Counted from the first letter of the stretch, positions 1 to 57,165 are shown. The stretch is 64,000 nucleotides of DNA from Antedon mediterranea (GCF_964355755.1 NC_092672.1:1860001-1924000); one strand, 5' to 3'. Made by a program: numbers and translations. The notes: generated from the sequence alone by a model not told the origin.

Positions 1-337
1 CGTCACGTCACCTTGTTGATCGTTGCATGACTACAGAACACAATCACAATCTTTATCTGCAATTAGATGTTTATTATTATTCTTCAAATAACAATAATAA
101 TTCAAATCGGTCAGTGTTTCCACATTCTAGATTCAAACAATATCAAAGCGCAACGCAAAGAAGTACGCGCAGCAAAAATAATTTGACCAATCACAAACGA
201 CAGAATGATCGGTTACTTGTGATTGTTTGAAATTAGTTGCGCTGCGTGTACGTACTTCCGGTGCGTCCTAGTTTCGAAGCAAGATTTACATTGATTGCTC
301 TTGTGGAGTGTGCTGCCAATGGAATTCACTAGATATG

Positions 338-358
338 TTAGTATTTATCAAGGCCATA
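338..358 (-). pseudogene. Detached last codons of the carboxypeptidase (YGLDKY*)
   Basis: Removing the element plus one TSD gives GGG AGA TAT GGC CTT GAT AAA TAC TAA, in frame with exon 9. Confidence 0.85.
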
Positions 359-362
359 TCTC

Positions 363-682
363 TAAAGAGACTGTTTATGTTTACTTATTAACCTAGGAGG
401 ACAATTAAGTCTCTTCGGTGTAACTACACACTCATCATTTGTACTCACCTAATCCTTTCTAGGCTGGTACGTGATGGGTATAGTTTGTGTCCTTCTTTGG
501 TTGTGTCTTCGCTTCAAGAGAGAGAGTTTTGCCTCTCGCACATTCAACGCCTGGGGCTGGTCGTGACGTATCTCGCCACTGGCCAGTCCCAGGGCCGGAT
601 TCGGGGGTTGAGTGCGCGTAGGCCCGGCGATTGGCTGTGACGTATAGATGACGTAACCACTAGCCAATCGCCAGGCACTACA
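363..682 (-). repeat. 3' LTR (320 bp)
   Basis: Copy of 12335-12654; preceded on the minus strand by a purine tract and followed by the TSD GAGA. Confidence 0.96.
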
Positions 683-720
683 ATCCTCCTCGTTTTATTT
701 TCTTTGTTTCCTGCCCCCCT
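683..720 (-). other. Polypurine tract
   Basis: Purine-rich ...GGGCAGGAAACAAAGAAAATAAAACGAGGAGGAT directly abuts the TG of the 3' LTR. Confidence 0.8.
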
Positions 721-797
721 GACTATTCTCTGACTGGTCTTCCCAAGGGAGACAGGCGCATTTTAGTTCACCGTCAGTGTCTGACATTGCTGTTCAA

Positions 798-990
798 TTT
801 GATATTGGATTTCAAGTTCATTTGAAAGTTCATTTGATTTCAAGTTCATTTGAAAGTTCTTTTGATTTCCAGTTCCTTTTAAAGTTCATTTGATTTCAAG
901 TTCATTTGAAAGTTCCTTTGATTTCCAGTTCCTTTTAAAGTTCATTTGATAGTTCCTTTGAAGGTGCACTTTGATTTTAAGTTCATTTTC
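798..990. repeat. Degenerate short-period tandem repeat (AAGTTC(A/C)TTTGA-type units) in the element 3' UTR
   Basis: About a dozen aagttc/cagttc units spaced 13-15 nt apart. Confidence 0.8.
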
Positions 991-1021
991 CATGGTGGGT
1001 CCTCCACTCCTTCCTCTTCTT

Positions 1022-1062
<41 letters not shown>

Positions 1063-1865
1063 GTAACACAACGGGGGGCACAGCCCCAACAAGAACAGGA
1101 TTTGAACAACTGAACACCAGAACGTCAAGGTGGGGGAATTACCCCAACAATTACAATTTGAACATATGAAAGCCAACAGGGGACTAAAGAGTCCCGAATA
1201 AAAAAATGTTGCCATAACAATCGAACAGTGGGCAATACATACGAACAATTGAAAAAAGAAATAAAGAAACAAGAAAATCAAATCCCTTCAAGCCATGTGG
1301 CATAGGGTATCCATCGGGTTGCTGACCGGCACCGCGTTCCAGGGAACACTGGTACCTGACAGCCCCCCGGAAGAGAACAAATCTGAGGAACACCGTTCTA
1401 GGGGTACAGAATTACAGATTTGAGAAAAGAAGGCACAAGCCTATGGGGATTGGCAAAAATTTAGCACACAACAGTAAAATTTTGTTCTGGAATTCCAGTA
1501 TATAGGGCTGACTGTTTGTGTGTATACAAAATATTTTAATTATGAGGGAAATTGTCAAAAAGAGACCGCACTGCCAATCGTAATTGAAACAAGGGACTTA
1601 CGGTCCCAGCTAAATAAGTAGAGGACATGTTGGACCTCAAATTTTGGGGTGGGAAGAGGATTTGCTCTTCGCCAATTTTTGGGCGTGCGGTGACTAAGGA
1701 CAGACAATTGTCCTGGGGTACAACAATGTTATACGCAAGTACACCAAGAAGGGGTGTACTGTATTCAAGTGATTAGAACGGTGTGGTATAGTAATAATCG
1801 TTTTGAAGAATTGAGTCCTGTTAAAGAATTGAGTTCTTTTACTTTTTTTTTTTTTTTTCTTTATT

Positions 1866-1909
<44 letters not shown>

Positions 1910-1945
1910 TATATATCCAAACCAACGGCTCCCGTGGCGTGATCC

Positions 1946-3727
1946 TTAGCTGCCCCATTCTTGCTCCAAGGTCAGCCCGTCCAGGAACACCTGCAGCATT
2001 CGGACCGCCGCTTCCCTGGTCTTTTTGTGGGCTGAGCGTCTGAGACAATCCGCCAGCCGCTGGTTTGCCTTGTAGGCCTCTTGGAGGAGACGTCTGTCTT
2101 CAGGCGTCGGTTCGGGGTGCGCCCCAAGGGCTTCACTCCGACCAGCCTGTGCCAACACTGGTGGTTGTTTGATGGAGACGGCTACCTTCTCGACAACTGC
2201 TGGTGCTGTCTCTTCTCTAGGTTGGGCTGGCCTTGATCTGGATGCCTCCCTTCTCCTGTTGATACTTGGAGGCGGTTTGGCTCTGCGAGACGCCCCACGG
2301 TGAGGAGTGAATCGATCCAAGAGATCGACCATCCCCCCCGGGTTCGCCTCCCAAGCCTCGGCCAGGAGCTCCAATAAACAATGTGGGTATAGCAGCGCCA
2401 GTGGACACTGCAGGTTGGTGATATCTACCCACGTTGCTGGCTCTTTGCATCCCACTGCCCGAGCGGTCAACCGCAGGATGGTCATCCACTTGTTGGACAG
2501 ATCGTGGGAACCTCGCGATGGCAGTTTCTGGCGGCACAGCGTCACTGCTCCCTCCAAAGTCGAAGCCTGCCTGGGTAACAGGGAGACCACTCCTTTGACG
2601 AACTCCCAGCGACGGCGGTGAGTTCTAGCGTCGTCCCTGATGTTTGCGGTTCCTATAAATCGGGGGGCGTGCACTAACAGGTGGTCTTTTGATGTGCCCT
2701 GTTGCACGGTACACGCCTTGATGGGGCAAGGGTAGCTCGTCCGCCGCAGTTTTGGTGGTGATGGACTATGTCTCCTTTCGGCGGTCGTGTGGCTAGCCTC
2801 TGTGGCCCCCGTGGGCGCCACTTGGCGTTCCACTTGAGCCCCAGAGGCATGACCACCTTGTGCGCGTCCTTGACTGGACTCGTCTCGGCGGTGACTTGTC
2901 CAACTGTCATCTGGCCGGAAGGCGCGCTTGCCTGGTTTCCTCGATTCTCGAGGTTCCACTTCTTTCTGGTGATCGGTGGACTTCTTGTATCGTATGTCCG
3001 TTGCTCCAAAGATCGGGTCCTCTGCCTGGGCCATCTTCTTCCCGACCAGGTCCCCGACGGACAGGGTACCGAGGTCTGGGCCCTCCAACCGGCAAGTTAT
3101 TCGGTCTGGTCCGATCGTTTGGATCACCCGACCTGCCACGACGCCCCTAGTCAGATCCTGAGCCAGGAGGCGAGCGGTGCAGTCGAGTGGCTGGCGAGGC
3201 GGCAACCCCGCAATATCGATGTTGGCTTCGAACTCGGTGCCATTCTGAAGCCTCACAATAGCATCGAACGAGCCCCTTGTTGATATCCGGTTAGTTCTCT
3301 TCAGGCGCACCTGCTGCCCAACACTGACCCGCGGTTCAGTATTTGGCCGCAACAGGAGCGGCGATGCTGGCCTCTCTGGTGAGGTGGAAACATTTTCCGC
3401 TGGCTGGCGCCTCCCTCCTTCTAGGAGTAGAGGAGACGTCGCTGGCGTTCTTCTTTGTGCTGGTGGCTCTGCTCGGTTGTTGTCCTCTGCCCCTGGGGAT
3501 AAAAGGAGTGCGGCCACGGCAGATATGTTTGTCGGCGGCGGGCCCTCTCCTTGCCCAGCGGGCAAGGGGCCGGACCCGTCCCGAGGTGGAGCTTCTTCTC
3601 CTCCGGAGGGTAGCGGAGTGGTCGCCCTCTCGGAGGCCCGGGCAGGGGCAGGCAAAGAAGGGAACTCCCTCTCCACTAGCTCTGCCCAGTCCATTGGCGT
3701 CACAGCTTCTGAGTAACTCTTTTCCAT
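1946..3727 (-). CDS. Retrotransposon ORF3, unknown function, not env-like
   Basis: ORF of about 600 codons between pol and the 3' LTR (track 1946..3769). The likely start is ATG 3727, after a splice acceptor at 3737-3735. No signal peptide or TM helix seen; has a CX4CX9HX3H motif. Confidence 0.8.
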   Translation of the reverse strand: MEKSYSEAVTPMDWAELVEREFPSLPAPARASERATTPLPSGGEEAPPRDGSGPLPAGQGEGPPPTNISAVAALLLSPGAEDNNRAEPPAQRRTPATSPLLLEGGRRQPAENVSTSPERPASPLLLRPNTEPRVSVGQQVRLKRTNRISTRGSFDAIVRLQNGTEFEANIDIAGLPPRQPLDCTARLLAQDLTRGVVAGRVIQTIGPDRITCRLEGPDLGTLSVGDLVGKKMAQAEDPIFGATDIRYKKSTDHQKEVEPRESRKPGKRAFRPDDSWTSHRRDESSQGRAQGGHASGAQVERQVAPTGATEASHTTAERRHSPSPPKLRRTSYPCPIKACTVQQGTSKDHLLVHAPRFIGTANIRDDARTHRRRWEFVKGVVSLLPRQASTLEGAVTLCRQKLPSRGSHDLSNKWMTILRLTARAVGCKEPATWVDITNLQCPLALLYPHCLLELLAEAWEANPGGMVDLLDRFTPHRGASRRAKPPPSINRRREASRSRPAQPREETAPAVVEKVAVSIKQPPVLAQAGRSEALGAHPEPTPEDRRLLQEAYKANQRLADCLRRSAHKKTREAAVRMLQVFLDGLTLEQEWGS

Positions 3728-3824
3728 ATTTGATCTGAAAGACATAATGAAAAGCACCTTTCCAATCATGGTGAATGTGAATTACAGTGTTAGTCAGCCC
3801 GGGGTGAGACGTTTGAATGCGGAT

Positions 3825-6800
3825 CTACTCGGCACACTTGGTACATTTAAATCGATCGATATCGATAGCTTCCGCTGGAGTAATGTTGACGCATGCTCCA
3901 TGGTACCATTCACCGCACAGATCGCACTCGATCATAAAACGCCCCTCCCATGGCTTCCTACAAGTACAGTAAATGCCGTCATCTTCGGCATCCCCGTCGG
4001 GGTCGGAATTCGTCAGATCAAGGTTGGTGATCCAATTTGGCAAATCCCGATCCCGGCAGAGCTTCAGTTTATCGTGGTGGATTACAAATATTTTATTGCG
4101 GAGACGTACGCGGAAGGCGTACGGGGCCAGCACCTCAGTGACTACCCCCGGACCCTTCCATGGCGCATTCAATTTCTTGTTTTTTCCCTTTATTTTGGTC
4201 TGGTCGAACACATAGACTTTGTCCCCAACTGCGTATGTACGCTCTAGTAGCTTAAGGTCGTATTGATACTTATTGCGCTTTTGCATTGATTTTAGATGTG
4301 TTCTTGCAATATCGTGCGCTAACTTCATATTTTCTACTAGGCCAGTGGTGTATGAATACGGATCAGTAATTGTTGTGCCCCCTGAAGAGCCGAACATGAG
4401 GTCGGGTGGTGTCGATACCTCCCTGCCCAGCATCATCAGGTTTGGTGTAGATTGGGTACTTCGGCATACCGTGGCCCTAATTGCACTCGTTATCTGGGGC
4501 AGATATTTATCCCAGTCCTTTTGTTGTTTTCCCACAAAACACCGGACCGCATTCATCACAGTCAGATTGTAACGTTCTACCTGACCGTTAGCTGAAGGAC
4601 GGTACGGCGTGGTGTGGGTCTTATTAATGAGGAGAATCTTGCAGAGCTCCCCGAAGAGATCGCTCTCAAAATTCGGACCCTGGTCCGAGTGCAATTGCAG
4701 CGGCATACCAAATCTGGAGAAGAATTCCCTTACCAGTACCTCGGCAGTCAATTGTGCAGTCTGCCGGGGTACCGGGTAGGCCTCTACCCATTTTGTAAAT
4801 TGATCCACTACCATCAATACATACAGATTCCCACTACTGGACTGAGGAAATGGTCCTGCAAAGTCTATGTGAACCCTTTCCATTGGGGCTCCCGAGTGGT
4901 AATTAATCTGTTCCGAGCGGCCTTTCTTATTCCCCCTCTTGTGGCTGTTACATATGGGACAGCCTATGACATATCTTTCGATATCCCCGGCCATCCCAAA
5001 CCAGTAGTATCGTTGTTTAAGACGGAGCTTAGTCCGTTTGATACCTTGGTGGGCGGCCGATGGGAGATCATGATAAGCTTGCATTGTTGTTTTAATCAAT
5101 GACTTCGGAAGAACAAGAAGGTCCTCCTCCCCCTGTTTATCTTGAATGAATAACACCCCGTCTCGCAAGCACATCCTTTCCTTACTCAACCAATAATGTT
5201 TTGTTGCCGGGCTAGTAGCGAAAAGCTCATTTGCCGAAGGCAGCGCGTCACCCTTAAACCAGAGTAACACGGGCCCCAGCTCCTGGTCTTTCCCCTGAGC
5301 CTCTTGGATTTCCTGGGTAGAGAAACCCCAATGAGATTGCTCCGCCCTATCCGTGGTTAGTTGATGAACATGTTGGGAGGGCAGGAAAGGCTGCGAGATA
5401 GGTTGATTTTGATGTGTGTGCACACCCGTCAGCGGAATGACGTCATCAACCTGGTCGATGAACGCCCCCCATTGCTGGTGCGCACGTACACAGTACTTAC
5501 ACCCCTTGCAAGGTAAATCAGATAATTTCACCCCATGTTTGTAATGATTAGCCATTTCAGGTGCCCGTGACAATGCATCGGCATTGACATGTTTTTTACC
5601 AGGGCGGTGTTCTACTATCATTACATACTGGCTAAGTTCTTCTATCCAGCGGGCCAGTTGCCCCTGGGGTTCCTTGAACCTCAGAAGCCAAGTCAGGCTA
5701 CTGTGGTCGGTGCGAACCTTAAATGGTTTACCCAGCAAGTAGTGTCTAAATTGACGTGTGAATTTCACAATCGCCAACAGTTCTTTACGGGTGGTACAGT
5801 AGCGTTGCTGCTCTGATGTTAATGCTAAACTAGCATAAGCAATCACACGCTCCTGACCCCCTTGTAATTGGGACAATTCACCTCCGATTGCCTGATCTGA
5901 TGCATCGGTATCAAGGACGAACATGTCATCAGGATTCGGAAGTGACAAAACTGGTGGTTGTGTCAACTTAGATTTAATTGAGTGAAATGCATCTATTTGA
6001 GGTTTGTCCCATCGGAACTCCCCCTTCTTTGCAACTGCATAAAGAGGTCTTGTTAATTCGGCAAAGTGGGGAATGAATGCCCTATGGTAATTTGCTAGGC
6101 CAAGGAAGCGTTGAGCCTCCTTGTAGTTCTTAAGATCAGGCCACCCACACACTGCCGCGATATCGGTATCGGACATCTCGAGAGTGTTGCGGGAGACCAT
6201 ACGGCCCAGAAATTCCACTTTCCTCTGGAAAAATAGACATTTCTTTGGTTTTAGTTTCAGATTATATTGTCGGAACCGACCTAGGGCCTCCCTTAAGTTA
6301 TTGCTGTGGTCTTCAAATGATTTGCCCAGGATAACCACGTCGTCGAGGAAAGCCAGAGCAGTCTGCCAATTTAGACCACGCAAAACCATATTGATGACCC
6401 TAGAGAAGGTTGCCGGACTATTACACAGGCCAAAGGGCATTTTTACAAACTCGAACAGGCCATATTTGGTGACGAAAGCGGTCTTTTTGCGATCGTCGGC
6501 ATTGAGGTTTATTTGCCAATAACCAGAAATGGCGTCCAATTTAGAGAACCATTGATTACCCGACAATGTGTCGAGGCAATCCTCTAAAATTGGTAATGGA
6601 TATACATCCTTTACCGTGATGTTATTTAAAGCCCTATAGTCTATGCAAAATCTGACGTTTCCATCCCTTTTCCGGACTAGGACTGGGGCGGAGGACCATT
6701 CAGAATTGGACGGCTGAATGATACCCCCCTCCAGCATCTTATCCAGTTCTTTGCGTTCTTCATCGGCAAAGTGTAACGGGGTACGGCGAAGTCGGTGTCT

Positions 6801-7751
6801 CACTGGAGCTGCATCAGACGTATCTACCCGGTGATCAATATTAGGGACCTCCCCAATATCGAATTGATCCCTGGCAAACACATCTGCGAACTCAGTAAGC
6901 ATCTCCTTCACCACCCCTGCCTGATCTTCCGATAAATTGGTAATAGAATTTTCATAAGTTGTACGCATATGATGTGGCAATGCGTGTGTGGCCGGAGAGG
7001 TTTCCCCCGGATGGGTGAAAACTTCCCCAGCTACACAGGATTCTATTTCAGATGCAAACCCAATTTCTAAACCTGCTTTGACAGTTACGTATTTGTTGGT
7101 TGTATTGACCATGCAGATCACAGGCGATTCACCTGCGGTGTGCACAGTTCTAGGAATTGTTAGGTTATTGTGGCCATGAGGTTCTACAATGTAGTCATGC
7201 AATTTGGTATCTAACTGACATGAAACATAGGCTATTGATGTAGGTGGTATCACACGCCGCTTGCATGTGATTACTCTGCAGCTAGAGGGCGTTGAGGGCG
7301 CCATACCATTTTGTATTAATGGGACAGCAACCCCACCGACCTTTAACAGCATTTCGCCTATGTTTACATCTGCGTTTGTGCCCCTCATGAAATCTAAACC
7401 CAATAGCATTTCGTCTTCAATCGGTGCAACATAGACATAAGTGGGATAGATGTTTGGCCCAATTTCGAGTTGCACCGGACCTATTTTTCGCCCTTCCATC
7501 GAACTACCCTTACCCGCCATGAATAATTTAATAGTACCCACTGTGGGCGGAGTAGGGGTAATTGAATGGTATAAGCTATCAGATATAATAGATACAGTCG
7601 CTCCACAGTCGACCACAGCGTCAACTTTAACGGATGCGACCGTAACTTTAGTGTAGAGTAATGAATTAGATTTCACTCGCTGTACAATAAGTGATTCAGT
7701 TGGGTCGCACTCTGGAGTGAACAATTTGGAGTCGACCCCTAGTCGTTTAAA
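3825..7751 (-). CDS. pol: Pol (protease, RT, RNase H, integrase, PHD finger), expressed as Gag-Pol by -1 frameshift
   Basis: VVDCGA protease; RFCIDYR, MPFGL and FLDD RT motifs; TDASD..ELLA..TDH..NADALSR RNase H; H-x6-H..CPIC zinc domain; HIDF/SDQG/VERYN DDE triad; WKGP motif; terminal C4HC3. The frame is open from the slippery site at 7751. Confidence 0.96.
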   Translation of the reverse strand, partial: FKRLGVDSKLFTPECDPTESLIVQRVKSNSLLYTKVTVASVKVDAVVDCGATVSIISDSLYHSITPTPPTVGTIKLFMAGKGSSMEGRKIGPVQLEIGPNIYPTYVYVAPIEDEMLLGLDFMRGTNADVNIGEMLLKVGGVAVPLIQNGMAPSTPSSCRVITCKRRVIPPTSIAYVSCQLDTKLHDYIVEPHGHNNLTIPRTVHTAGESPVICMVNTTNKYVTVKAGLEIGFASEIESCVAGEVFTHPGETSPATHALPHHMRTTYENSITNLSEDQAGVVKEMLTEFADVFARDQFDIGEVPNIDHRVDTSDAAPVRHRLRRTPLHFADEERKELDKMLEGGIIQPSNSEWSSAPVLVRKRDGNVRFCIDYRALNNITVKDVYPLPILEDCLDTLSGNQWFSKLDAISGYWQINLNADDRKKTAFVTKYGLFEFVKMPFGLCNSPATFSRVINMVLRGLNWQTALAFLDDVVILGKSFEDHSNNLREALGRFRQYNLKLKPKKCLFFQRKVEFLGRMVSRNTLEMSDTDIAAVCGWPDLKNYKEAQRFLGLANYHRAFIPHFAELTRPLYAVAKKGEFRWDKPQIDAFHSIKSKLTQPPVLSLPNPDDMFVLDTDASDQAIGGELSQLQGGQERVIAYASLALTSEQQRYCTTRKELLAIVKFTRQFRHYLLGKPFKVRTDHSSLTWLLRFKEPQGQLARWIEELSQYVMIVEHRPGKKHVNADALSRAPEMANHYKHGVKLSDLPCKGCKYCVRAHQQWGAFIDQVDDVIPLTGVHTHQNQPISQPFLPSQHVHQLTTDRAEQSHWGFSTQEIQEAQGKDQELGPVLLWFKGDALPSANELFATSPATKHYWLSKERMCLRDGVLFIQDKQGEEDLLVLPKSLIKTTMQAYHDLPSAAHQGIKRTKLRLKQRYYWFGMAGDIERYVIGCPICNSHKRGNKKGRSEQINYHSGAPMERVHIDFAGPFPQSSSGNLYVLMVVDQFTKWVEAYPVPRQTAQLTAEVLVREFFSRFGMPLQLHSDQGPNFESDLFGELCKILLINKTHTTPYRPSANGQVERYNLTVMNAVRCFVGKQQKDWDKYLPQITSAIRATVCRSTQSTPNLMMLGREVSTPPDLMFGSSGGTTITDPYSYTTGLVENMKLAHDIARTHLKSMQKRNKYQYDLKLLERTYAVGDKVYVFDQTKIKGKNKKLNAPWKGPGVVTEVLAPYAFRVRLRNKIFVIHHDKLKLCRDRDLPNWITNLDLTNSDPDGDAEDDGIYCTCRKPWEGRFMIECDLCGEWYHGACVNITPAEAIDIDRFKCTKCAE
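7702..7751 (-). promoter_or_regulatory. -1 programmed ribosomal frameshift signal (U UUA AAC plus downstream hairpin)
   Basis: TTTAAAC at 7751-7745 in the gag frame just before the TAG; pol is in the -1 frame; 6 nt downstream GGGTCG-ACTC...GAGT-G-CGACCC can form a stem (7738-7702). Confidence 0.88.
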
Positions 7752-9949
7752 GAGTCTTCTTCATCTACATCGAATTCATGTTCGACTAGATTTAGCCTTC
7801 TGTTTTGCTTGAAGTTTGATTTATTATTATGTGGTCTATTTGAATTATTGGGAGTCTTGGTGGGGCATTCCCTTGCGAAATGACCCTCCTCACCGCAGGA
7901 GAAACAGCCGGCCCCTCTCTCTGGAGATCTACGTCGAGCCGGGGATGGTTGCCTCTCGCGCGGCCTATCAAGGCGATCTAATACCTTGTCCATTTTCGAA
8001 CAAAGGGCCGAGACCTGTTCTTGCAATTCGTTTATTCGGGTGTTGGAAGCATGAACAGATTCCCGGTCCAGAGAACGATCTCGATATCGGGCACCATGGG
8101 GCGATTGCGGACGTGCAAAACGCACCACGCGCCGTTTATCCTCCCTTTTAGTTAATTCATTAATCCGCCCAAAGTCACCCTCAGCCTGCAAGTTGCACTC
8201 CTGAACACTAGGTTCTGGGTACACCTGGCAGACAGTGGATGGCTGAGGTGGAGTTTCTGGCAGATGTGTAGTTGGTGTTGAGGCCAATTTAGGTGTTATT
8301 ATTGGTTCATCGTTGACACTCTGGTGCCATTCGATAAGTCGGATAGCTTCAGGAATTGTTTTGGGCCGCTGCAGGCTAGCAAATTTGCCGCTTGGCCTAT
8401 CAACACACCCACGACAAAACTTTAAAGCTGCCATTTCTTGGATCCAATGATTGGTGGCCCCTTCACCCCCTTGCGTTCTATACGCCTTGGCTGCGGCTTT
8501 AAGCACTCTGGCTCCCCACTCACGTAGGGACTCCAGGTCTTTTTGGATAAGTTTCTCAAATTTTGCAGCCAGAAGAGATTGGTCTTGGGCGGAGCCAAAG
8601 TATTCGTTAAAACTAACGATGAGCCTCTCGTAAGAGACTGCACTACCATGCAAGGTCAGCAACGTTTGTAAGTACGCGGCTGCCTGGCCCCTCATGCTCA
8701 TGTGGAAAGCTTCCTTGCGTTCGGCCCTAGACCATCCATTAATCTGGGAAAATCCCTCAAATCTATCATGGAATATTCCCCAGTCGTCATCCCCACCGTG
8801 GAATTCTAGATGTTTTTGCGGCCTGAAAGGCTGTTGACCCCGATGATCACCGCGGCCCCACTCGTCCCGCAAGGGTAGGCGGTCAAGCCTATTCCTCTCG
8901 GGGCGAGGAGGTCGAAGGAATCGTCCGAGATCGTGCTCATAATTTTGATGATCATTTCTCCCACCATAATCACCCATCTGATAATTATCTCGGTTGATGT
9001 TTTGTAAGGGTGGTGGTGGTTGATTATAATTCATTCCAGGGGCGGAAGGATGACGAGGACGATAGCAATCGTTGTCCAGGTACCCCCGGTTGTAATTATC
9101 ACCTCCGTACCCATGGTCACCTTGAGGGTAGGAAGGTCGAGTTCCCCATGAGGGATCTCGGTTCTTATTTTGAGCAGTAGGGCGTTGAGGTAGGCCATGT
9201 TCAACAGCGGCATCCCCCCGTCCTACGTTGGTGTTACAATTTATTTCTTTTTCTCGATCCGAATGATCGGGAGGGTAGCCGTGTTCTACAGCTGGATAGC
9301 CATAAAAACCAGCCCCAACCCGGTCATAAGGATGGGCGTCTTCGTTTCCCCCAGCTCCCGTGCGAGCACATGTACTGGGAGACGGTGAAGTATCCACCAT
9401 GTGCACTCCAGAACGGTCAAGAGATCTACCCCGACCAGCAGCAACAGGGCCGCTGGTCGCAGTGTCACCCCTTCTCATTGGAGTACGTGGAAAAACCTCA
9501 TCGCCACCCGTATCGCCCGCCCGGTGGTTGTTGTGGAGCGTACGGGAATCTGGGTTGCTAGGCACGCTTGCCTGGTCTGCATAGCGTTGATCGCCTCCGG
9601 CCCCCGGATGCAAGGATGGGTCGCTCGGCAAAGGTGGTACGGGGGTGCAGGCCTGCTCGGGAGCTTGATCGTGCTCTCCCGAACCGTTACCAGCATCTCC
9701 ATACCCCCCAGTCGGCGGTCCCATTCTCACATACCGAGAGTTAATGGCATAGTCCATGTTAAAGGACAAAAAGTCGAACGAATTATCGCCGACTGCCCGT
9801 GCTAGATCTTGTGGGTTTGTGATATTCCCATAATTATCCCTGTAGGCCCTGATTTTCTCGGCCAAGGGTGGGGGTAAACCCTGTGGGAAATCTTTCGCCC
9901 TACGGACAAAGTTGATCTTAAAAGGTATTGGTTCGATGGTTTTTGGCAT
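7739..9949 (-). CDS. gag: Gag (736 aa): N-terminal HhH-like segment, long disordered region, capsid-like core, CCHC zinc knuckle
   Basis: CFSCGEEGHFAREC knuckle (7865-7906); capsid-like FHGGDDDW..F..RFE...NGWS and QKDLESLREW motifs; lies upstream of pol. Confidence 0.92.
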   Translation of the reverse strand: MPKTIEPIPFKINFVRRAKDFPQGLPPPLAEKIRAYRDNYGNITNPQDLARAVGDNSFDFLSFNMDYAINSRYVRMGPPTGGYGDAGNGSGEHDQAPEQACTPVPPLPSDPSLHPGAGGDQRYADQASVPSNPDSRTLHNNHRAGDTGGDEVFPRTPMRRGDTATSGPVAAGRGRSLDRSGVHMVDTSPSPSTCARTGAGGNEDAHPYDRVGAGFYGYPAVEHGYPPDHSDREKEINCNTNVGRGDAAVEHGLPQRPTAQNKNRDPSWGTRPSYPQGDHGYGGDNYNRGYLDNDCYRPRHPSAPGMNYNQPPPPLQNINRDNYQMGDYGGRNDHQNYEHDLGRFLRPPRPERNRLDRLPLRDEWGRGDHRGQQPFRPQKHLEFHGGDDDWGIFHDRFEGFSQINGWSRAERKEAFHMSMRGQAAAYLQTLLTLHGSAVSYERLIVSFNEYFGSAQDQSLLAAKFEKLIQKDLESLREWGARVLKAAAKAYRTQGGEGATNHWIQEMAALKFCRGCVDRPSGKFASLQRPKTIPEAIRLIEWHQSVNDEPIITPKLASTPTTHLPETPPQPSTVCQVYPEPSVQECNLQAEGDFGRINELTKREDKRRVVRFARPQSPHGARYRDRSLDRESVHASNTRINELQEQVSALCSKMDKVLDRLDRPRERQPSPARRRSPERGAGCFSCGEEGHFARECPTKTPNNSNRPHNNKSNFKQNRRLNLVEHEFDVDEEDSLND

Positions 9950-12322
9950 CCCTGGAAGATAAGAAAAATCCTTCCCAATTAGTTTTATTCTTCATTTATA
10001 GGCCTGGTAAGTACTCCCGTCCCCCCGTGCATCCAACCAGCGAGCGGAGGTAGCATCGGTCTGATGCTGTTTCGATGATTATTTTTGCGTCTCACTCGTT
10101 GGGTGCCCAGAGAGAACAGGGGTAGTACCAGCCCAATACACACCTAGCGCTAATCACAGTTCAATCAAATATAATTACAATGTAAGGGTTACCTCCCCCA
10201 TCACAAAAATTTTAGCTAATTATGTGTACATATAATGATTTATGGGCACTCACATTATGCCACGAAAATAAAATAAAAGGACTACACAAATAGTACAGGT
10301 TAATGAAAAGAATATATGATATACAAGGCATGTGATAAGAGATACAAATCGTTACCAGATGTTATTATAGCCAAGTGTCAATGACATGGGCAAAACAAAA
10401 CATTACAGATTACACACTGTGACAGTTAAGAATCGAAATTCATACAAGACATGTTGAAAAATAATCATGATAAGAATAAGAACATACAAGAACATGCGAA
10501 AATAAATGAGACAAGACACGGAAAAAATTTTATTTTGAAAGAAAAAGGCATACAAGACATATAAATAATTCTAGGCAAAAACCTAAGATAATCAATAAAT
10601 AAATAAATATGCCTAAAGTATCACAAAAAATAATATTCTAACCAAAAATCAATAAATATTAATAAAATAAATATAGGTACCGGCCTAGCCTGTACCCTAC
10701 AAAATAATTCAATTCAAAAAATCTATGCTAAATAAATAGTACTGTACACTAATTCAAGACATACTAAAAATAATAACAACAGGAATAATTAAGCCTATGC
10801 ATAATTACCCCAAAAAATTAAAATAAATCATGAAAATAATAGGTAGGAAATTCAACTAGAATAACCACCTAATAAATAAAACATCGTCTAACTAAAACAA
10901 TAAAAATTTACTAAATAATTTTACGTCGAAAATAGTTCAATAAAAATAAAATAAATCAATCGGAAAATAACTTAATTCCAAGCAAACAATATACACGAAT
11001 GAATAAATAAATAAATAATAATCCTAATGTCATTCCCACCCAAGTGGGAGAGACAAAATAACTATAATCTAACTACCCCGCGATAGCACAGGCCAGAAAA
11101 TTCCAGCACGTCTATCGTCAGGCCATAAATCAATCCAGACAATACACAGACCGGGAGACGAGCTCTCCGTTCTGCATAAAACTAAAATCTAAAAATAGTA
11201 AGGAGTATCCCTATATTATTCTACCAATCAGAATACAGTACTCACCTAGCGTCATCATCGAAAGTCGTAAACAACTGTTGACCTCGTTGATGCAAGCAGC
11301 TATCCGCGAGGGTAGCAAGCGAATGCGTGCTCGCGATTGGCTAGCGATGAATCACACGTGAGAAGACTGATAGGCAGAAAGTTGCTGTTTGCTCAGGAAT
11401 GGCGGCATTCTCAAAGCAACGGCAGTGTAGATAAACTACTGTTTAACCCCGTTGTTCGTGAACACAAGTCGCCAAACCCGAGTCGGATTACCCTAACAAG
11501 CAACACCCTCCAATAACCTCGTTCTGTTGGTCGTAGGTTATGGTAGTGTAATTTAAGGATTAAAAATAATGATAATAAAAATCGTGGATTTGAATAAGCT
11601 AATAAATAATCAAAATACGCGAGAGATGCCAACCACAAAAAATGGCGTCACTCACTAAAAAATTGTTTCGAAATTAAATTTAATATTTTTCCTACAAATT
11701 ATAAATTTGCTAATTATTATGTTTTGTACATTTTTCCAATAATATTCTGAATCACGGGCCAGACATATTCATTGTTCTGGAATCACGGGCCCAGTGCGTT
11801 AAACATACAATAAAAAACGCTGTTCCATGTTCACGTGCATGGTATGTACGTAGCTTCGGCTAGGTCACGGGCCCAGGGCCCAGCCACATCGCTACACACA
11901 CTAATATCTTTTTCGGATCATTAGGAAATAAAAAATGTACCTATCCGAAGAATCAGAGTACAAATGGGTCCCCCATAAATATACTGTCTGACAATTCGGA
12001 TTACGGCACAAATCCAAGACGGAGAAATAATAATATAATTTACTATAAACAACTCCCGACGGCTCGACCCCATCGATCGGACGAAACCTGCAGGCACGAC
12101 AGCAGATTTCGGCCGCGAGACGGAGACGAGTCGTTGACGAGGTGGGAGATGGGTAGTGGGACGTGCTGCCCAGCAAACACAGAGGTCGTTCCTCCAGCAT
12201 TGCCTCTGGGCAACACCACAGGGCGAAACGAGATGTGCGAACTAGAACAACACTCCTACCTTCCCAAACAGCTACACGCGGTTGACAGTGTCCCCCGCCG
12301 AGGCAAAAGGAACACCAGTTTA

Positions 12323-12333
12323 CCTCGTCGCCA
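12323..12333 (-). other. Primer binding site, complementary to the tRNA-Ser(GCU) 3' end
   Basis: TGGCGACGAGG starts 1 nt after the 5' LTR; complementary to CCUCGUCG-CCA, the 3' end of metazoan tRNA-Ser(GCU) as recalled. Confidence 0.85.
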
Positions 12334-12334
12334 T

Positions 12335-12654
12335 TAAAGAGACTGTTTATGTTTACTTATTAACCTAGGAGGACAATTAAGTCTCTTCGGTGTAACTACA
12401 CACTCATCATTTGTACTCACCTAATCCTTTCTAGGCTGGTACGTGATGGGTATAGTTTGTGTCCTTCTTTGGTTGTGTCTTCGCTTCAAGAGAGAGAGTT
12501 TTGCCTCTCGCACATTCAACGCCTGGGGCTGGTCGTGACGTATCTCGCCACTGGCCAGTCCCAGGGCCGGATTCGGGGGTTGAGTGCGCGTAGGCCCGGC
12601 GATTGGCTGTGACGTATAGATGACGTAACCACTAGCCAATCGCCAGGCACTACA
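12335..12654 (-). repeat. 5' LTR (320 bp, TGTAG...CTTTA)
   Basis: No mismatches to 363-682 found by eye; followed on the minus strand by 1 nt and then the PBS. Confidence 0.96.
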
Positions 12655-13257
12655 TCTCCCCAGTACAAGGACTGATGGATAGATCTCTTCACCAGTCGGT
12701 ATGATTTGGTTGGCTGGTAACAGGAATCCATAATCACCAGTATCTCGTAGCTCCACCACGTATGAGTAGTTGGTTCCTAAGACACCACACGCCCAGTCAA
12801 GACTGGAACCTGAAGAAGCATCTGCAGTAAGAAGAACGATCACACAGATTATAAACTTGAAAACATCATGACTGATGAATCATTTTCATGAATTTACGTT
12901 TAGGCCTAGGAATCAGATTTTAAAAACCTTGCATCATGCAAATTCTCGCCTTGGTGGCTTATTCGAGATATGTAAAGATAAATATACTGTATACCCTTGT
13001 GAAGTCGTCTATGTATTGTGATTATATTCCCTTCTTTTCAGTACCGGTACAGCAGAAAACGACCCCACATTACATCAAGCAAGTATCAAGCAAGGATGAT
13101 TCCATATTTAATACATCTTAGAATGTGACATAAACATGGCATAATTGTAAACTTACACAATGTTTCAGCCAATGGACCGGATGTATATTCTTTCCCATGA
13201 ACCTTCTTGATTTCCGCTACAGCCTCATTTCCAAGAGCAAGCTACAGAAATGGTTAA

Positions 13258-13613
13258 AGGCCCATTTACACTAGGAGGATAACGATCGACGATAAATAGA
13301 CAAATGTGCATTTTTCATACATAAAACAAAAGAAATATAAAAACTTTTCATTGTAGAACTATAGAATAACCATCTATGCTTCCTTTGATGAAAATGATAT
13401 TTTCACACGACAATACAATGATTTTATTGTTTTTATTTATCATGACGTCTGATTTGATTGGAATTTTAAAAATATTATTTTTATCAAAGACAGCATAAAT
13501 GATTATCCTATAGTTCTAGAACGAAAACCTTTCTAAATTTACTTTGTTTTATGTAAAAAAAAAATGCATGTTTATTTATCGTCCATCGTTATCGTCCTAG
13601 TGTAAATGGGCCT
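13258..13613. mobile_element. PIF/Harbinger-type foldback MITE
   Basis: About 40-bp TIR AGGCCCATTTACACTAGGA.GATAACGAT.GACGATAAATA; TAA on both flanks; interior also imperfectly palindromic. Confidence 0.85.
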
Positions 13614-13832
13614 TAATACTGGACGTTACAAAATGTACAATGACCATTTTAATGTGACAGGCCTTGCCTAGACAGGCTAATATTTTATATTAGGCCTTGT
13701 ATAGCCTAGATAATTCTTATATTTCCCTGACGTCACCGTTTATATTTATAGTGAGTCTATTTAACGTGCAGCGCATGCGCTCTCCACACTGTACGCTCAG
13801 ATCTGGTTCGTCACGCGAGATGATATATTTAA

Positions 13833-15197
13833 AGTGGAGCTCCACCCAGAAAATTACTATTTTTCATACATTTCAACTATTATTTAAAAATATCATCCCT
13901 TATACTTCATATTTTTTTGAATTTTTTTTCAATGAGTACGATTTTCTTGAAAATCACGCCTTTTTGCGTTTTGGGGGGATACCTTGTAATTTCCTATTCT
14001 TTTACATGCAAAAGGGGGGTATATTTGAATAATCCTAAAAAATTCATTTCTTCACCAAAAAAAAAATGTAAAATGTAAATTTATGTAATTTTTCCAGATC
14101 TTTCTATTTCTGGTATCTTTATCACGTATACATTGCGCAATTTTGCGTAAATAGACACTTTCCCCCGTTCGGGTCCAATTGGGTTTTTTATTTTGCTAGG
14201 GAGTACGATCACGTGACATTTTTCACAATCGCACTACTGCAGCTGGCGATCTGTTATTTTGTCGCGATGTTATTTTTGACGGGCGAAAAGTATATTAAAA
14301 CATTCTGAATGTGACCCTATTATATTTCACAGTGTAATAATGTGATTATGAGACTATTACTAAAATGTCAAATTTAACGAGATTTGAGAAAGACGTGGCT
14401 ATACAGTATATTCAATAAAGCTAGGCCTAGGCCTACTAGAGTGTAGGTATGTACCGATCCTGCGTGGCCTCTAGCTAGGCTAGGCTGACAGCAGTGAAGT
14501 TTGTTTTGCTGGCACCCGACCTTGGCCTACCCATGGGCCATGATAGGGTGCCTGAATAGTTGCTTTTCAGTCAGGTCTAAGCTTGCACATCGCTTTACTA
14601 CTCTTGTTCTGTATACTATAGGATTTTGTGTTTCACAATTCTTAATGTGCGAGAAAACCCAGGAACGATAAATGGGGGCGAAACGACCATGCCTATGAAT
14701 ACATAGGCCTCTAGACAAAAATTCAAGGCTAGCTAGGCTGAGCACACGGCTGAGCTAGGCCTAGCCCTAGCTTAAAGTTAAAAGCAATCTGATAAGATTA
14801 TTATGCTGTTGTTGTACAGTGAAAATCATGAGGTTACATGTAAATTATACTGACATTCTTATCGGAAATATTACTTAGGCCTAAACAAATCGTATTAATT
14901 GTGTGTATAAAATTTATTCCCCATTTTTCGACACATAATTTACCCAAGGGGAGACATTTCATCAATGCGTTGAACGGCGACTAAAACGCGTCAGTCGCTA
15001 AGTGTATTGTAAACTAATAACCCCTAAGTTACTGAAAAACTGTAATGTGTTAAAAAACACTATTTTCTGACCGATTTTTTAGAAATGAGTTTTTGGAAAA
15101 TATTTCCGTATTTTTCCTGTTTTTTTTTATGTAATCACTTTCAATTAAACATACTTAAACATAATATAAGCTGAGAATGTCTGAGTGTAGCTCCACT
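13833..15197. mobile_element. Non-autonomous TTAA-targeting DNA transposon (Kolobok-like)
   Basis: TTAA at 13829-13832 and 15198-15201; TIR AGTGGAGCT(C/A)CAC(C/T)CAGA; purine-purine termini; no transposase ORF. Confidence 0.8.
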
Positions 15198-23020: not shown

Positions 23021-26000
23021 TTAGCAACAGTCACTTTTCTGTTTTCCTTCAGTATGTGGACTTCCTGACAGTGTTATGGGTTTTTCTGATTCTAAAATAA
23101 GAAAAATAGTTTATTTTAATCAAACAATTTGTTTATTTGTTAATTGCCTAGCCTTATTCAGATTCTAAGAATGCGCTGCTTATTGAATTAATACAGTAGT
23201 TGTAACAGTTGCACAAGCTATCACAACACATATTAGCTTGTAAGCATGCTCAGAACTTGTTTATTCTCACTTACTACTATTGCTTAGCAGATTACTCCCG
23301 CCTCCTATCCTTTTTCCAACCATCCTCGACTCAATATCATCTAATTCTTTCCGAACAGAAAAATCAAATGAAAGCGCTGCTACCCTTTGAAAAAAATCTG
23401 CTACATTTTCCCCTGCAAGAATTAAAAATTAATCAAGTACGTAATTATATATTTCTAGTTTCCTGGACTTTCTGCTGGAAATATTTATATTTATTTATTT
23501 TAGGCAAGCCAAGGTTTATGAGCACTGTAATTTCCATTAATATTTTGGACAATAAATGAATCTGTATTCTCACTCACGAGAACGATCAAAGCATATTGAT
23601 CAAAACGTCAAGAAATTCAACAATTCTTTATACGTGATGTAACTTTATAAACATAAGTCATTAAAATTATCTCATCTTTATCGCTATCTCATTAATGTAT
23701 TTTCAGTATTGCTAGAGTACATACTAAAACTACCCAAATAATAAACAATAAGTGAATGTTGTAACGGATTGTGTCATATGAGATTTTGGTTATTGTAAGT
23801 CACATGGTTTCAGTTGTGTTCTTACCAAGACATTCTTGTTTGCATCAATTTGTTTTTTTAAAGTACTAATGTATAAAATATTGTGGTTGTCGTAGAGTAG
23901 AACACCTATTAAGGGGACACCTTTAGGACCTAACAAAGTGTCTTCTTAATAGGGACACCTTCAGGAGCCAACAAAGTGTCTTCTTAATAGGGACACCTTC
24001 AGGAGCCAACAAAGTGTCTTCTTAATAGGGACACCTTCAGGACCCAACAAAGTGTCTTCTTAATAGGGACACCTTCAGGAGCCAACAAAGTGTCTTCTTA
24101 ATAGGGACACCTTCAGGACCCAACAAAGTGTCTTCTTAATAGGGACACCTTCAGGAGCCAACAAAGTGTCTTCTTAATAGGGACACCTTCAGGAGCCAAC
24201 AAAGTGTCTTCTTAATAGGGACACCTTCAGGACCCAACAAAGTGTCTTCTTAATAAGGGTTGATCATAGTGTTAAAACATTTCTCCTTGTTTGTTTCACA
24301 GAAAAGAATACATTAATGGGGGTGTTCCCTGAACAGAGATGTCTACTATGAGGTTTTTACTGTATGTTGATCTATGCAATCCCTATTGTGTGATTGTTTG
24401 AATGTGCACAATACTTGCCTGTTAAAGATGATACAGCCCAGTATTCTCCTTGGATTTCATTGGCTAACTTTGTGGCCAGGCCCTCTAACTCATGTAACTG
24501 ATGATCTGCCTGAGAAGTCATAAAAAGTAATTATTTCACTATATAAAATGTCAAAGGAAACATAGACATAAAGGGTTTGACAAGATTGGTGTGGTAATGT
24601 GGGTGTGGTAATGTGGGGGTGGAAAGATGGGGTGGCAATGAGTATATATTTAGATAAATAAATGAAAAAAAGGGTGAAAGTACACAAAAACAATTGTCTT
24701 ACACATAGATCTCTTTTTGTTCCAACTAAGAAAACGTGAGCGTCTTTTCTACACTCGTGTTTCGCTTCATCGTACCATTTTCTAGCGTGTTGAAGGGTGT
24801 ACGGGTCGGACATGTCAAACACCACGATCACAACTAACAGAGACATAGAGTTTACGGTAATTGTAATTCTGTAGCGGAAATTTCTGGTAAAACTTATCAA
24901 AATAACAGATCAATATCCAACAGTTAGTAATCGATACTAAACCTATTTCAAGCAAGACAATCTAACAGGACAATATAGGAACTTGTAACAGTCCTTTGAT
25001 CTTATGTCTGGCTGCCACAAATACCAACAGTACTGTAATGTACATATTCTCCGTAGCGCTCGGTGTCTGGGGCGTGGAACTGATCGTATCGCAGCCACAG
25101 ATAAAGCCTTTTGAAAATCTGCGTAGATAAATTCTAAGTTAATTTGGGGATATAAAAAAGTAATTGCAAGTAACAATACCATGTGCTCCCCTATAGTAAG
25201 CCGCAGCTATACATTTAAATCGTTCTTGACCTGCTGTGTCCCATCTGAAAAAAAGAGATTCATGTATTTATATATACCGTATATAATTGAGTATAGTCCC
25301 AGGGGGGCTGGGGTACAAAATTTGAAATTGTGATCTGATTGCCTTATTAATGATGCATTTACAGAACCATTGTCTGTCTAAACTCAAACTAGTCAAACTA
25401 GTTTGACAAAAAAACATGTGATGTGCCCAAATATGGTAGTGATATGCTTAAATATGGTAGTGATATGACATCATCATGTCCATTATAGTGAGTGAGTTTA
25501 TACTTGCACGGTAGTAATAGTACAGTAGTACGTCACCCTGGTCAGTCACAAAGAATACATGACAAAACATATTTATTTCTACCCTTAAAATGTATAATTA
25601 ATATGAACACTGAAATAATTAAACAAAATCTTAAATATTCTACATTGTGTTTCTTCATAAAGATGACATTTTCCACTTACATTTGTAAATTAAACGGTAC
25701 ATTCAAAATATCGAACCTCTCTACTTCAAAGTCGACTCCGATTGTAGCTTTATAATCCCGATCAAATACTTCATGACAGAAACGGTTGACAAGGCATGTC
25801 TTGCCGACAGCTACATCGCCAATTACAATCGCTTTGGAAACTTTTAATCTGTAAATATAAGCATTGATTAAACAAATTACTTAATGAAAAAGGTCAGGTC
25901 ACGGCGGCATGACTTGTCCTAAACTCACTTACCCTACAGTTCCAGTTTTGTTCGACAGGCACGCTGTTCTTACTTTAGGGGTGAATTCATTTTGTTTGTA

Positions 26001-56954: not shown

Positions 56955-57165
56955 GCTATCAATTTATCAATATCTATCAATTTATCTAATAGATGTTTAT
57001 CAATTTATGTAATAAATATCTATCAATGTATAATCAATATCTATCAATGTATAATCAATATCTATCAATGTATAATCAATATCTATCAATGCATAATCAA
57101 TATCTATCAATTTATAATCAGTATCTATCAATGTATAATCAATATCTATCAATTTATTTAATCAA
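56955..57165. repeat. 21-bp minisatellite (AATATCTATCAATGTATAATC)
   Basis: About 7 near-perfect copies plus degenerate flanks. Confidence 0.85.

What the first reader, a model, noticed from the sequence alone, without database searches (positions are those of the whole stretch)
1946..3795. Non-env third ORF with its own splice acceptor and S1/OB-like and C2H2-like motifs
Seen: an intact ORF of about 590-607 aa in the env position, with no signal peptide or TM segment. It has Pro/Ser/Arg-rich disordered parts, a beta-rich block at about 3328-3083 (VSVGQQV..RISTRGSFDAIVRL.NG.EFEANIDIAGL...VAGRVIQTIGPDRITCRL), a CPIKAC-x9-H-x3-H motif (2728-2669) followed by a helical domain, and a helical C-terminus. 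Upstream are GACTAAC (3795-3789, branch-point-like) and TGTCTTTCAG (acceptor 3737-3735), then ATG 3727. Inference: a subgenomic spliced mRNA encodes a nucleic-acid-binding accessory protein, for example an anti-silencing factor, RNA export factor or transactivator. The S1 likeness is pattern recognition only.
Basis: partly seen in the sequence, partly recalled or inferred. Interest (0 to 1): 0.82.

Follow-up and report, generated by a model that had tools for sequence, protein, structure and literature searches.

The report
Retrotransposon carries Tudor-protein-like barrel gene
A young jumping gene, likely from a feather star, has a third gene that appears to be made as its own spliced message; the protein keeps an old zinc-finger core but, unlike its relatives, lacks their DNA-cutting enzyme and instead carries a barrel predicted to resemble part of the host's transposon-silencing (Tudor) proteins, which would let it act as a decoy against silencing.

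Summary
Confirmed and extended. The ORF (3727-1946, 593 aa) is the third gene of an intact, very young Ty3/Gypsy element (identical 320-bp LTRs, PHD-tipped integrase). A sequencing-run contig joins an LTR donor (12421) to exactly the proposed acceptor (3734), GT-AG; two runs of the same sample with even, DNA-like cover lack the joint. That this run is RNA is inferred. ORF3 is not an orphan: its C2H2-like/helical core is shared, by reciprocal profiles, with ORF3s of a wide Gypsy clade, where it usually precedes a TatD nuclease (17 of 19 PHD-type loci with enough DNA) and once follows a GDSL hydrolase. The crinoid version lacks TatD and has a beta-barrel that is not S1-type: its model best matches the staphylococcal-nuclease-like shell of extended Tudor domains (TDRD1 Z 10.4), without the Tudor insert or nuclease residues. 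Best reading: a modular accessory protein whose barrel likely engages host RNA-silencing factors; function is untested and Rev/CERV-like export is a close rival. The scan noted TatD-type ORF3s on other DNA before; the barrel form was not found in its notes or in ten literature searches.

The parts
12335..12654 (-). 5' LTR (320 bp, TG...TA), with CCAAT/CRE-like boxes seen by eye and the splice donor
   Evidence: 100% identical to the 3' LTR over 320 bp; ends, TSD GAGA and PBS read
12415..12421 (-). splice donor inside the LTR (exon ends 12421, GTGAGT from 12420)
   Evidence: joint 3734->12421 in run X2; motif list; the same donor is in the 3' LTR at 448
12323..12333 (-). primer-binding-site-like TGGCGACGAGG
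   Evidence: sequence; tRNA identity not tested
7739..9949 (-). gag (weak N-terminal HhH, capsid-like, CCHC knuckle)
   Evidence: Pfam PF00098 E 3e-7, PF03732 E 0.005, PF12836 E 0.018
3825..7760 (-). pol: protease-RT-RNase H-integrase-SH3-like-PHD, one open frame of 1311 codons
   Evidence: Pfam hits incl. PHD PF00628 E 6e-8
3789..3795 (-). branch-point-like GACTAAC (use not shown)
   Evidence: sequence; 4 such heptamers in the element
3735..3750 (-). pyrimidine tract and 3' splice site; exon starts at 3734
   Evidence: joint in X2; acceptor enrichment in relatives
1946..3727 (-). ORF3, 593 aa (P0001), pI 9.7
   Evidence: five crinoid homologous sequences at 21-41% identity
3020..3334 (-). predicted staphylococcal-nuclease-like OB barrel plus helix (aa 132-236), extended-Tudor type, no Tudor insert, nuclease motifs not kept
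   Evidence: AF2 pLDDT mostly 70-86; VIA Z 10.4 to TDRD1; BFVD TNase-like E 5.6e-4; hhalign
2303..2737 (-). clade-wide ORF3 core: C2H2-like motif (2728-2669) plus helical domain (aa 331-475)
   Evidence: reciprocal profile searches; AF2 pLDDT mostly 80-94
1949..2113 (-). C-terminal helical hairpin (aa 539-593), where relatives have TatD; crinoid-specific so far
   Evidence: AF2; aligned in P0001, P0002, P0003, P0006; no match to loci or other ORF3 domains
683..1945 (-). 3' untranslated region with A-tracts and short tandem repeats; polypurine tract at 691-684
   Evidence: X2 contigs cover 1258-1830 and the PPT-LTR junction
363..682 (-). 3' LTR

Best explanation
ORF3 is the intact third gene of a young Gypsy retrotransposon, likely expressed from a spliced LTR-to-ORF3 message, and it likely works as a soluble helper whose zinc-finger/helical core docks on the element's own nucleic acid while its predicted nuclease-dead, Tudor-protein-like barrel would bind host RNA-silencing factors as a decoy or adaptor. 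SHOWN: intact ORF; GT-AG joint 12421->3734 in one run; core homologous to the ORF3 core of a wide Gypsy clade; no TatD here. PREDICTED: barrel fold and its likeness to the SN-like shell of extended Tudor domains; loss or replacement of TatD in this lineage (tree plus AU test). INFERRED, UNTESTED: that the run is RNA; that the core binds zinc and the element's RNA or DNA; that the barrel came from a host Tudor-family gene and binds piRNA-pathway proteins. I put the architecture (spliced, modular, non-env accessory protein with SN-like barrel) at about 0.85 and the full mechanism at the confidence given.
For: Splice joint at the predicted base, absent from same-sample runs X3, X4 that cover both ends. 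The protein collection holds exactly the 593-aa product from the third ATG, the one left after splicing. A crinoid-only core profile finds 13 of 19 PHD-type loci at iE<0.002 versus best reversed control 1.8; a relatives-only profile finds P0001 at iE 6.6e-7 and P0004 at 3e-21. Cargo beside the core varies: TatD, GDSL hydrolase in L044, barrel here. Barrel: 13 of the top 14 rows of the wide structure search are extended-Tudor or Tudor-SN chains, TDRD1 Z 10.4, rmsd 2.4-2.6, 93 aligned over about 185 chain residues (so skipping the Tudor insert); K3L 7.0, eIF2-alpha 6.4, SNase 6.3; top 16 likewise. 6 of the top 10 viral matches are named TNase/SNase-like. SN-fold surfaces of eTudor domains bind piRNA factors without the Tudor cage (PMC12526068, passages). 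ORF3 differences listed between copies: 10 synonymous, 8 not, expected share 0.26, p 0.007 (truncated list).
Against: No function tested. The barrel match is structural only: no Pfam, NCBIfam or PDB sequence hit to SNase or Tudor families, Foldseek E-values in PDB are all 0.01 or worse, identity 10-16%, and the model rests on 6 sequences. SND1's uninterrupted SN domains score 8.3-8.5 and viral TNases lead the viral library, so a non-piRNA source is open. The hhalign support (62%, E 7e-5) uses a TNase set picked with a motif chosen after seeing the barrel. The canonical PIWI-tail pocket needs the Tudor subdomain (PMC8249470, PMC12526068 passages), which is missing. P0003 lacks the barrel altogether. 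X2's kind is not on record, it also covers a host intron (12841-13241), no host exon-exon joint is among the 15 joints shown (50 not shown), the short side of the joint is 28 letters, and it is one sample. The sister P0002 shares the first 40 codons, so the joint may come partly from it. A review argues broad piRNA blockers should be selected against (PMC6719617, passages).
Confidence: 0.35

Rival explanations
1. Rev/CERV-like regulator: ORF3 enters the nucleus, binds the unspliced genomic RNA through core and barrel, and promotes its export or holds back splicing; the barrel is simply an RNA-binding OB fold.
For: The donor lies in the LTR, so genomic RNA must retain an 8.7-kb intron. The protein is basic (pI 9.7) with SP/RS dipeptides and basic clusters. 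CERV of Cer1 is a spliced-message, multi-domain, non-env protein with a possible zinc finger needed for genomic RNA export (PMC10309623, abstract and passages).
Against: No sequence or fold link to CERV was found or tested directly; no export signal was tested; it does not explain why most relatives carry TatD on the same core.
Confidence: 0.25
2. Replication helper: the core targets the protein to the particle, cDNA or integration complex; relatives use TatD to trim or repair nucleic acid ends, and the crinoid barrel is a non-catalytic binder that took over a holding role.
For: TatD motifs are intact in the 7 relatives examined, one motif missed in one; the barrel is itself of a nuclease fold; rotifer ORF3 exonucleases were proposed to process element RNA ends (PMC5408684, passages).
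Against: Cargo also includes a GDSL hydrolase (L044), which has no nucleic-acid role; a dead barrel cannot replace catalysis; no binding to Gag or integrase was tested.
Confidence: 0.2
3. LTR transactivator or VANC-like sequence-specific chromatin anti-silencer: the C2H2-like core binds the LTR DNA and recruits host factors.
For: Weak likeness of the motif to ATF-2/YY1/Sp1 fingers (E 0.6-6); PHD on the integrase shows chromatin contact; VANC precedent (PMC6719617, passages).
Against: A single finger with a short 8-9 residue loop, scores not significant; no activation domain or binding-site array was found or tested.
Confidence: 0.1
4. eIF2-alpha mimic like poxvirus K3L, damping a stress kinase.
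For: K3L Z 7.0-7.1, rmsd 2.8-2.9, 75-77 of 83 residues aligned; eIF2-alpha Z 6.1-6.4.
Against: 3.4 Z below TDRD1 in the better model; K3L covers only model residues 1-85 and not the following helix; S1 profile gives 0.14%.
Confidence: 0.05
5. Decaying or functionless passenger, or the joint is not a linear element mRNA (back-splice from the 3' LTR, or a sister element only).
For: TatD is gone; the two LTRs are identical so the joint cannot tell 5' from 3' LTR; one sample only.
Against: Five crinoid loci (six sequences) at 21-41% identity keep open frames and invariant C, C, H, H; the X2 contig 1923-3644 matches this ORF with 0 differences; synonymous excess.
Confidence: 0.05

Closest known systems
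Non-env ORF3s of bdelloid rotifer LTR retrotransposons Juno/Vesta (DEDDy exonuclease, GDSL esterase; PMC5408684, passages and section 3.6 read)
   Same: Third ORF in the env slot without TM segments, said to be expressed from spliced messages; interchangeable enzyme cargo, including a 3'-5' exonuclease and GDSL, much as TatD and GDSL here.
   Different: Different enzyme families; no shared C2H2-like/helical core reported in the passages seen; no SN-like barrel; here the cargo is predicted non-catalytic.
CERV of Cer1 (C. elegans Ty3/Gypsy; PMC10309623, abstract and passages)
   Same: Spliced-message, soluble, multi-domain accessory protein with flexible linkers and a possible zinc finger.
   Different: CERV shares exons with Gag and is nematode-restricted; here the donor is in the LTR, no Gag sequence is included, and the domains differ. 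CERV function is shown, this one is not.
Extended Tudor (Tudor-SN-like) domains of TDRD1, Papi/TDRD2, Krimper, Qin, Spindle-E, TOFU-6, SND1
   Same: Predicted barrel plus following helix superposes on the SN-like subdomain (Z up to 10.4, 93 residues).
   Different: No Tudor insert and so no aromatic cage; 10-16% identity; no sequence-level hit; encoded by a transposon.
TatD-type ORF3 of PHD/HhH Gypsy elements (loci L001-L045 here; earlier scan notes e1-7881919, e1-9984778; no paper found)
   Same: Same position, acceptor just before the ATG, same C2H2-like/helical core, related integrase (up to 55-57% identity).
   Different: This element lacks TatD and the N-terminal helical domain, and has the barrel and a C-terminal hairpin instead.
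VANC anti-silencing proteins of Arabidopsis VANDAL transposons (PMC6719617, passages)
   Same: Transposon-encoded accessory protein; functional analogue of the proposed role.
   Different: Plant DNA transposons, DNA demethylation, demonstrated; no homology tested or expected.

Membership tests
Ty3/Gypsy LTR retrotransposon | two direct LTRs, TSD, PBS, PPT | tested here: met
Ty3/Gypsy LTR retrotransposon | gag then pol in the order PR-RT-RH-IN | tested here: met
Env / fusion glycoprotein | signal peptide and transmembrane anchor | tested here: not met
   hydropathy max 1.13, N-terminus 0.17 in P0001
Env / fusion glycoprotein | sequence or fold match to known fusogens | tested here: inconclusive
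   none listed; lists are filled by the barrel
Subgenomic spliced ORF3 message | GT-AG junction from a 5' donor to the ORF3 acceptor | tested here: met
   joint 12421->3734 in X2, not in X1, X3, X4
Subgenomic spliced ORF3 message | junction shown in a library on record as RNA, with strand and ends | tested here: inconclusive
   X2 kind not on record; contigs only
S1 domain | closest fold and profile match to S1 rather than other OB folds | tested here: not met
   S1-type chains Z 7.0 or less versus 10.4; hhalign 0.14% against 10 E. coli S1 domains
SNase-like OB domain (SN-like subdomain) | five-strand barrel with helix between strands 3 and 4 and a following helix, superposing on SN folds | tested here: met
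   (predicted model)
SNase-like OB domain (SN-like subdomain) | sequence match to PF00565 or solved SN/Tudor-SN chains | tested here: inconclusive
   no hit; hhalign 62% to a motif-selected TNase set
Active thermonuclease (SNase/TNase) | DGDT and R-x-x-G-I-D-x-P-E catalytic motifs | tested here: not met
   present in the 63 TNase-like sequences by selection, not kept in the 4 crinoid barrels; catalytic roles recalled
Extended Tudor domain | Tudor subdomain with aromatic cage inserted in the SN fold | tested here: not met
   strands 2 and 3 are joined by a short turn; alignments skip about 90 chain residues
Extended Tudor domain | descent from a host TDRD gene; binding of piRNA factors | not testable with these tools
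Classical C2H2 zinc finger | C-x2-4-C-x12-H-x3-5-H spacing and family score | tested here: inconclusive
   four ligands invariant in the crinoid set and in 11 relatives, but loop 8-9 residues in crinoids and E 0.6-6 only; zinc binding not tested
TatD-type Gypsy ORF3 | C2H2-like/helical core | tested here: met
TatD-type Gypsy ORF3 | C-terminal TatD domain (PF01026) | tested here: not met
   no TatD hit in ORF3 or in window 1-14000
Rev/CERV-like export factor | nuclear localisation and requirement for unspliced RNA export | not testable with these tools
   needs cell work

The most novel reading that the evidence does not exclude
A crinoid Gypsy lineage captured the SN-like shell of a host extended-Tudor (piRNA pathway) protein, dropped its methyl-arginine reader, and fused it to an ancient cargo-carrying zinc-finger module in place of a TatD nuclease, making an animal transposon-encoded mimic that ties up piRNA-pathway partners at the element's own RNA.
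Probability: 0.2. Interest if true: 0.92.

Novelty: new variant of a known kind. Interest (0 to 1): 0.7.

Why it matters
A 2019 review states that no transposon-encoded anti-silencing factor against the piRNA pathway had been described, although such factors are invoked to explain the pathway's fast evolution (PMC6719617, passages). A transposon protein with a Tudor-less extended-Tudor shell is a concrete, small, testable candidate. Even if that role fails, the finding defines an undescribed conserved ORF3 core that carries swappable cargo (TatD, GDSL hydrolase, SN-like barrel) across a large invertebrate-type Gypsy clade, and shows that several 'uncharacterized' crinoid gene models are, or derive from, retrotransposon ORF3s.

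Tried and rejected
No whole genome is held, so copy number and the context of P0002-P0006 stay unknown; only P0001 is shown to sit in an element. No RNA holder listed. Word-index homologue searches found only 2-3 proteins. Pfam, NCBIfam and PDB sequence searches gave nothing significant for ORF3. Metagenome scan with the ORF3 alignment: 0 of 153 candidate stretches. ESM Atlas: no feature hit; structure hits to OB folds under the bar for aa 125-245 and nothing usable for aa 328-480. The core was never folded and searched alone, so its fold is unassigned, not shown to be new. Barrel and C-terminal hairpin profiles found nothing in 80 loci. S1 identity and active nuclease rejected. Env rejected. 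Second donor 11245 to gag acceptor 9952: no joint seen, little X2 cover there. Frameshift hairpin not unusual (z -0.47). dN/dS in relatives' core: dN 0.14 / dS 0.86 for L002-L018, dS saturated in two other pairs. PF00565 search of one E. coli record gave no loci. No complex prediction was sent: no host partner was available and no specific element-element pair is claimed. Literature searches listed no paper on TatD or Tudor/SN-like cargo in Gypsy elements; PMC6238403 and PMC8556966 hold none of the terms PHD, TatD, ORF3, envelope; Repbase reports, subscription papers and supplements were not seen and may describe the clade.

Full report
1. Setting. The ORF lies in an LTR retrotransposon on the minus strand, 12654-363. 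The two LTRs are 320 bp and 100% identical, with a 4-bp target duplication, a PBS-like and a PPT-like site. gag (9949-7739) and pol (7760-3825) are open; pol reads protease, RT, RNase H, integrase, SH3-like, PHD. This is a young Ty3/Gypsy copy. No whole genome is held. The nearest homologue of ORF3 is named by its source as an Antedon mediterranea protein on a contig of the same length as that of ORF3 itself, so the host is likely that feather star. The element interrupts the last exon of a carboxypeptidase gene.

2. Observation. The frame gives 607, 599 or 593 aa by start codon. There is no hydrophobic segment in P0001. The branch-point claim is the weak part: the heptamer type occurs 4 times in the element, lies about 55 nt from the acceptor, and another AG lies between.

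3. Splicing. Five runs hold the stretch, none on record as RNA. X3 and X4, same sample, cover all 30 bins and lack it; X1 lacks it too but covers ORF3 poorly. One search repeats this for X2 versus X3 at 95% likeness; an X2 contig matches 1923-3644 with 0 differences. Limits: contigs only; 28 letters on the short side; one sample; X2 also covers a host intron and no host exon joint is among the 15 rows shown (50 hidden), so its RNA nature is inferred; the tool warns that depths cannot rank genes, and I do not use them. Because the LTRs are identical, a back-splice from the 3' LTR cannot be excluded, and the sister P0002, which shares the first 40 codons, may contribute. Independent support: the collection's record starts at the third ATG, the first one left after the splice, and an acceptor-like site lies within 22 nt of the ORF3 ATG in 17 of 27 relatives (2 more had no ATG found) against 52 of 810 control ATGs.

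4. Family. A profile search of 1.84 billion proteins found 5 hits at E<=0.001, all crinoid 'uncharacterized' proteins where named (A. mediterranea, Anneissia japonica), 21-41% identical, with invariant C, C, H, H of the motif. Their genomic context could not be read. A scan of metagenome contigs with the integrase-PHD part returned 80 loci (best 80 of 111). 38 have the PHD; of the 19 with at least 2.5 kb downstream, 18 have an N-terminal helical domain, 18 the C2H2-like/helical core and 17 TatD (10 of these 19 helped train the first two profiles and 7 the TatD profile). Free of that circularity, a crinoid-only core profile finds 13 of the 19 at iE<0.002, best reversed control 1.8, and a relatives-only profile finds P0001 at 6.6e-7, P0003-P0006 at 1e-13 to 3e-21, P0002 at 0.007. 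Pfam confirms TatD over cut-off in 7 of 8 ORF3s and in 6 more distant ones; L044 has a GDSL hydrolase plus the core instead. I saw this before consulting the scan's notes, which report TatD-type ORF3s in a sea urchin and J-domain/TatD forms in a flatworm (unchecked leads).

5. Direction of change. In an integrase tree (67 rows, 14 short loci dropped, quick search) and a reduced, outgroup-rooted one (21 rows) the window element is sister to the PHD/TatD group (99) inside a larger group whose other branch also carries core and TatD (97). Forcing all 14 TatD-bearing rows together without the window is rejected (p-AU 0.005; group named after seeing the first tree). So TatD was most likely lost or swapped out in the crinoid lineage; cassette exchange between lineages could give the same picture.

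6. The barrel. AlphaFold2 models (2 and 6 sequences) give a five-strand barrel with helices at aa 132-236, a helical core at 331-475 and a C-terminal hairpin. The alignments span about 185 chain residues with 93 aligned, that is they skip the Tudor insert. In the viral library the best match is a nuclease at E 5.6e-4 and 6 of the top 10 are named TNase/SNase-like. Profile-profile: 62%, E 7e-5 to 63 TNase-like sequences (kept of 80; selected by a motif I chose after seeing the barrel, so biased), 0.14% to 10 S1 domains, reversed controls 0.07% and 2.9%. The nuclease motifs are not kept. No sequence-level hit to Tudor or SNase families exists, and P0003 lacks the barrel. The barrel was not found in any of the 80 loci, so it looks crinoid-specific in this sample.

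7. Selection. Of 18 ORF3 differences listed between copies or alleles, 10 are synonymous against an expected share of 0.26 (p 0.007; 0.04 at 0.33). The list is truncated to best-supported rows, so this is weak. Open frames at 21-41% identity are the stronger sign.

8. How it likely works. Transcription from the LTR yields a full-length RNA and, by removing 8.7 kb, a short message for ORF3 (joint shown, RNA inferred). The constant core with changing cargo suggests a targeting module (inferred). In the crinoid form the cargo is a predicted non-catalytic SN-like barrel. In piRNA proteins the PIWI-tail pocket lies between Tudor and SN subdomains (PMC8249470, passages), but SN-fold surfaces also bind Maelstrom, Krimper and other partners on their own (PMC12526068, passages). 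A Tudor-less shell could therefore bind such partners without reading PIWI tails, acting as decoy or adaptor near the element's RNA. I give this 0.35; CERV-like export 0.25 (PMC10309623, abstract and passages); replication helper 0.2; transactivator 0.1; K3L-like 0.05; passenger 0.05.

9. Known versus new. Spliced non-env third ORFs are known (rotifers, PMC5408684, passages and section 3.6; CERV). PHD domains in retrotransposons are called widespread (PMC6673714, passages). Ten searches listed no paper on TatD or Tudor/SN-like cargo in Gypsy elements; two mollusc/annelid surveys lack the terms, a third gave only clade tables, and a 2026 review gave no relevant passage for my terms. No supplement was read; Repbase and closed journals are not searched. 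The scan's notes held nothing by sequence, place or the Tudor words. Verdict: real, a new variant of a known kind, with a specific and testable anti-piRNA hypothesis; interest 0.70.

Noticed in passing
window 12822-12655 and 358-338: The element sits in sense orientation in the last coding exon of a host M14 carboxypeptidase gene (PF00246 E 9e-12), six codons before the stop; loose ends at 12654 in X2 and X3 look like an empty-site allele or paralogue.
   Followed up: partly
window 3727-3608 and P0002: P0002 is identical to ORF3 for the first 40 residues, then 36% identical; an X2 loose end at 3608 reads as P0002's continuation. This suggests a recent ORF3 cassette swap behind a shared acceptor.
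   Followed up: partly
window 12333-9950: 2.4-kb leader with 37 ATGs, a second strong donor at 11245 and an acceptor 2 nt before the gag ATG (9953-9952); gag-pol may itself need splicing. No joint seen.
   Followed up: partly
window 7751-7745: TTTAAAC slippery-type heptamer in the gag-pol overlap, candidate -1 frameshift; hairpin behind it not unusual.
   Followed up: partly
window 9880-9797; L010:5649-6875; L035:7994-9448: Gag of this clade starts with a helix-hairpin-helix motif (PF12836 E 1e-9 and 2e-6 in relatives, 0.018 here).
   Followed up: partly
L044:3514-4680; L047:9612-10436: A relative fuses a GDSL/SGNH hydrolase in front of the same core without TatD; another has a GDSL-like ORF alone after pol.
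   Followed up: partly
L010, L023, L035: A second gag follows ORF3 within about 0.6-1.3 kb, suggesting tandem elements.
   Followed up: no
window 12515-12486: Short upstream ORF of 9 codons in the LTR before the donor; matters only if transcription starts upstream of it (read by eye).
   Followed up: no
window 1905-1842, 1056-1020, 962-776: Long A-tracts and 12/28-bp tandem repeats in the 3' untranslated region.
   Followed up: no
window 23876-24334, 30313-32091, 45733-46100, 56968-57178: Minisatellites and a palindromic repeat cluster; dispersed MITE-like repeats at 21.0, 25.4, 29.0, 40.2, 45.5, 58.3, 60.6 kb.
   Followed up: no
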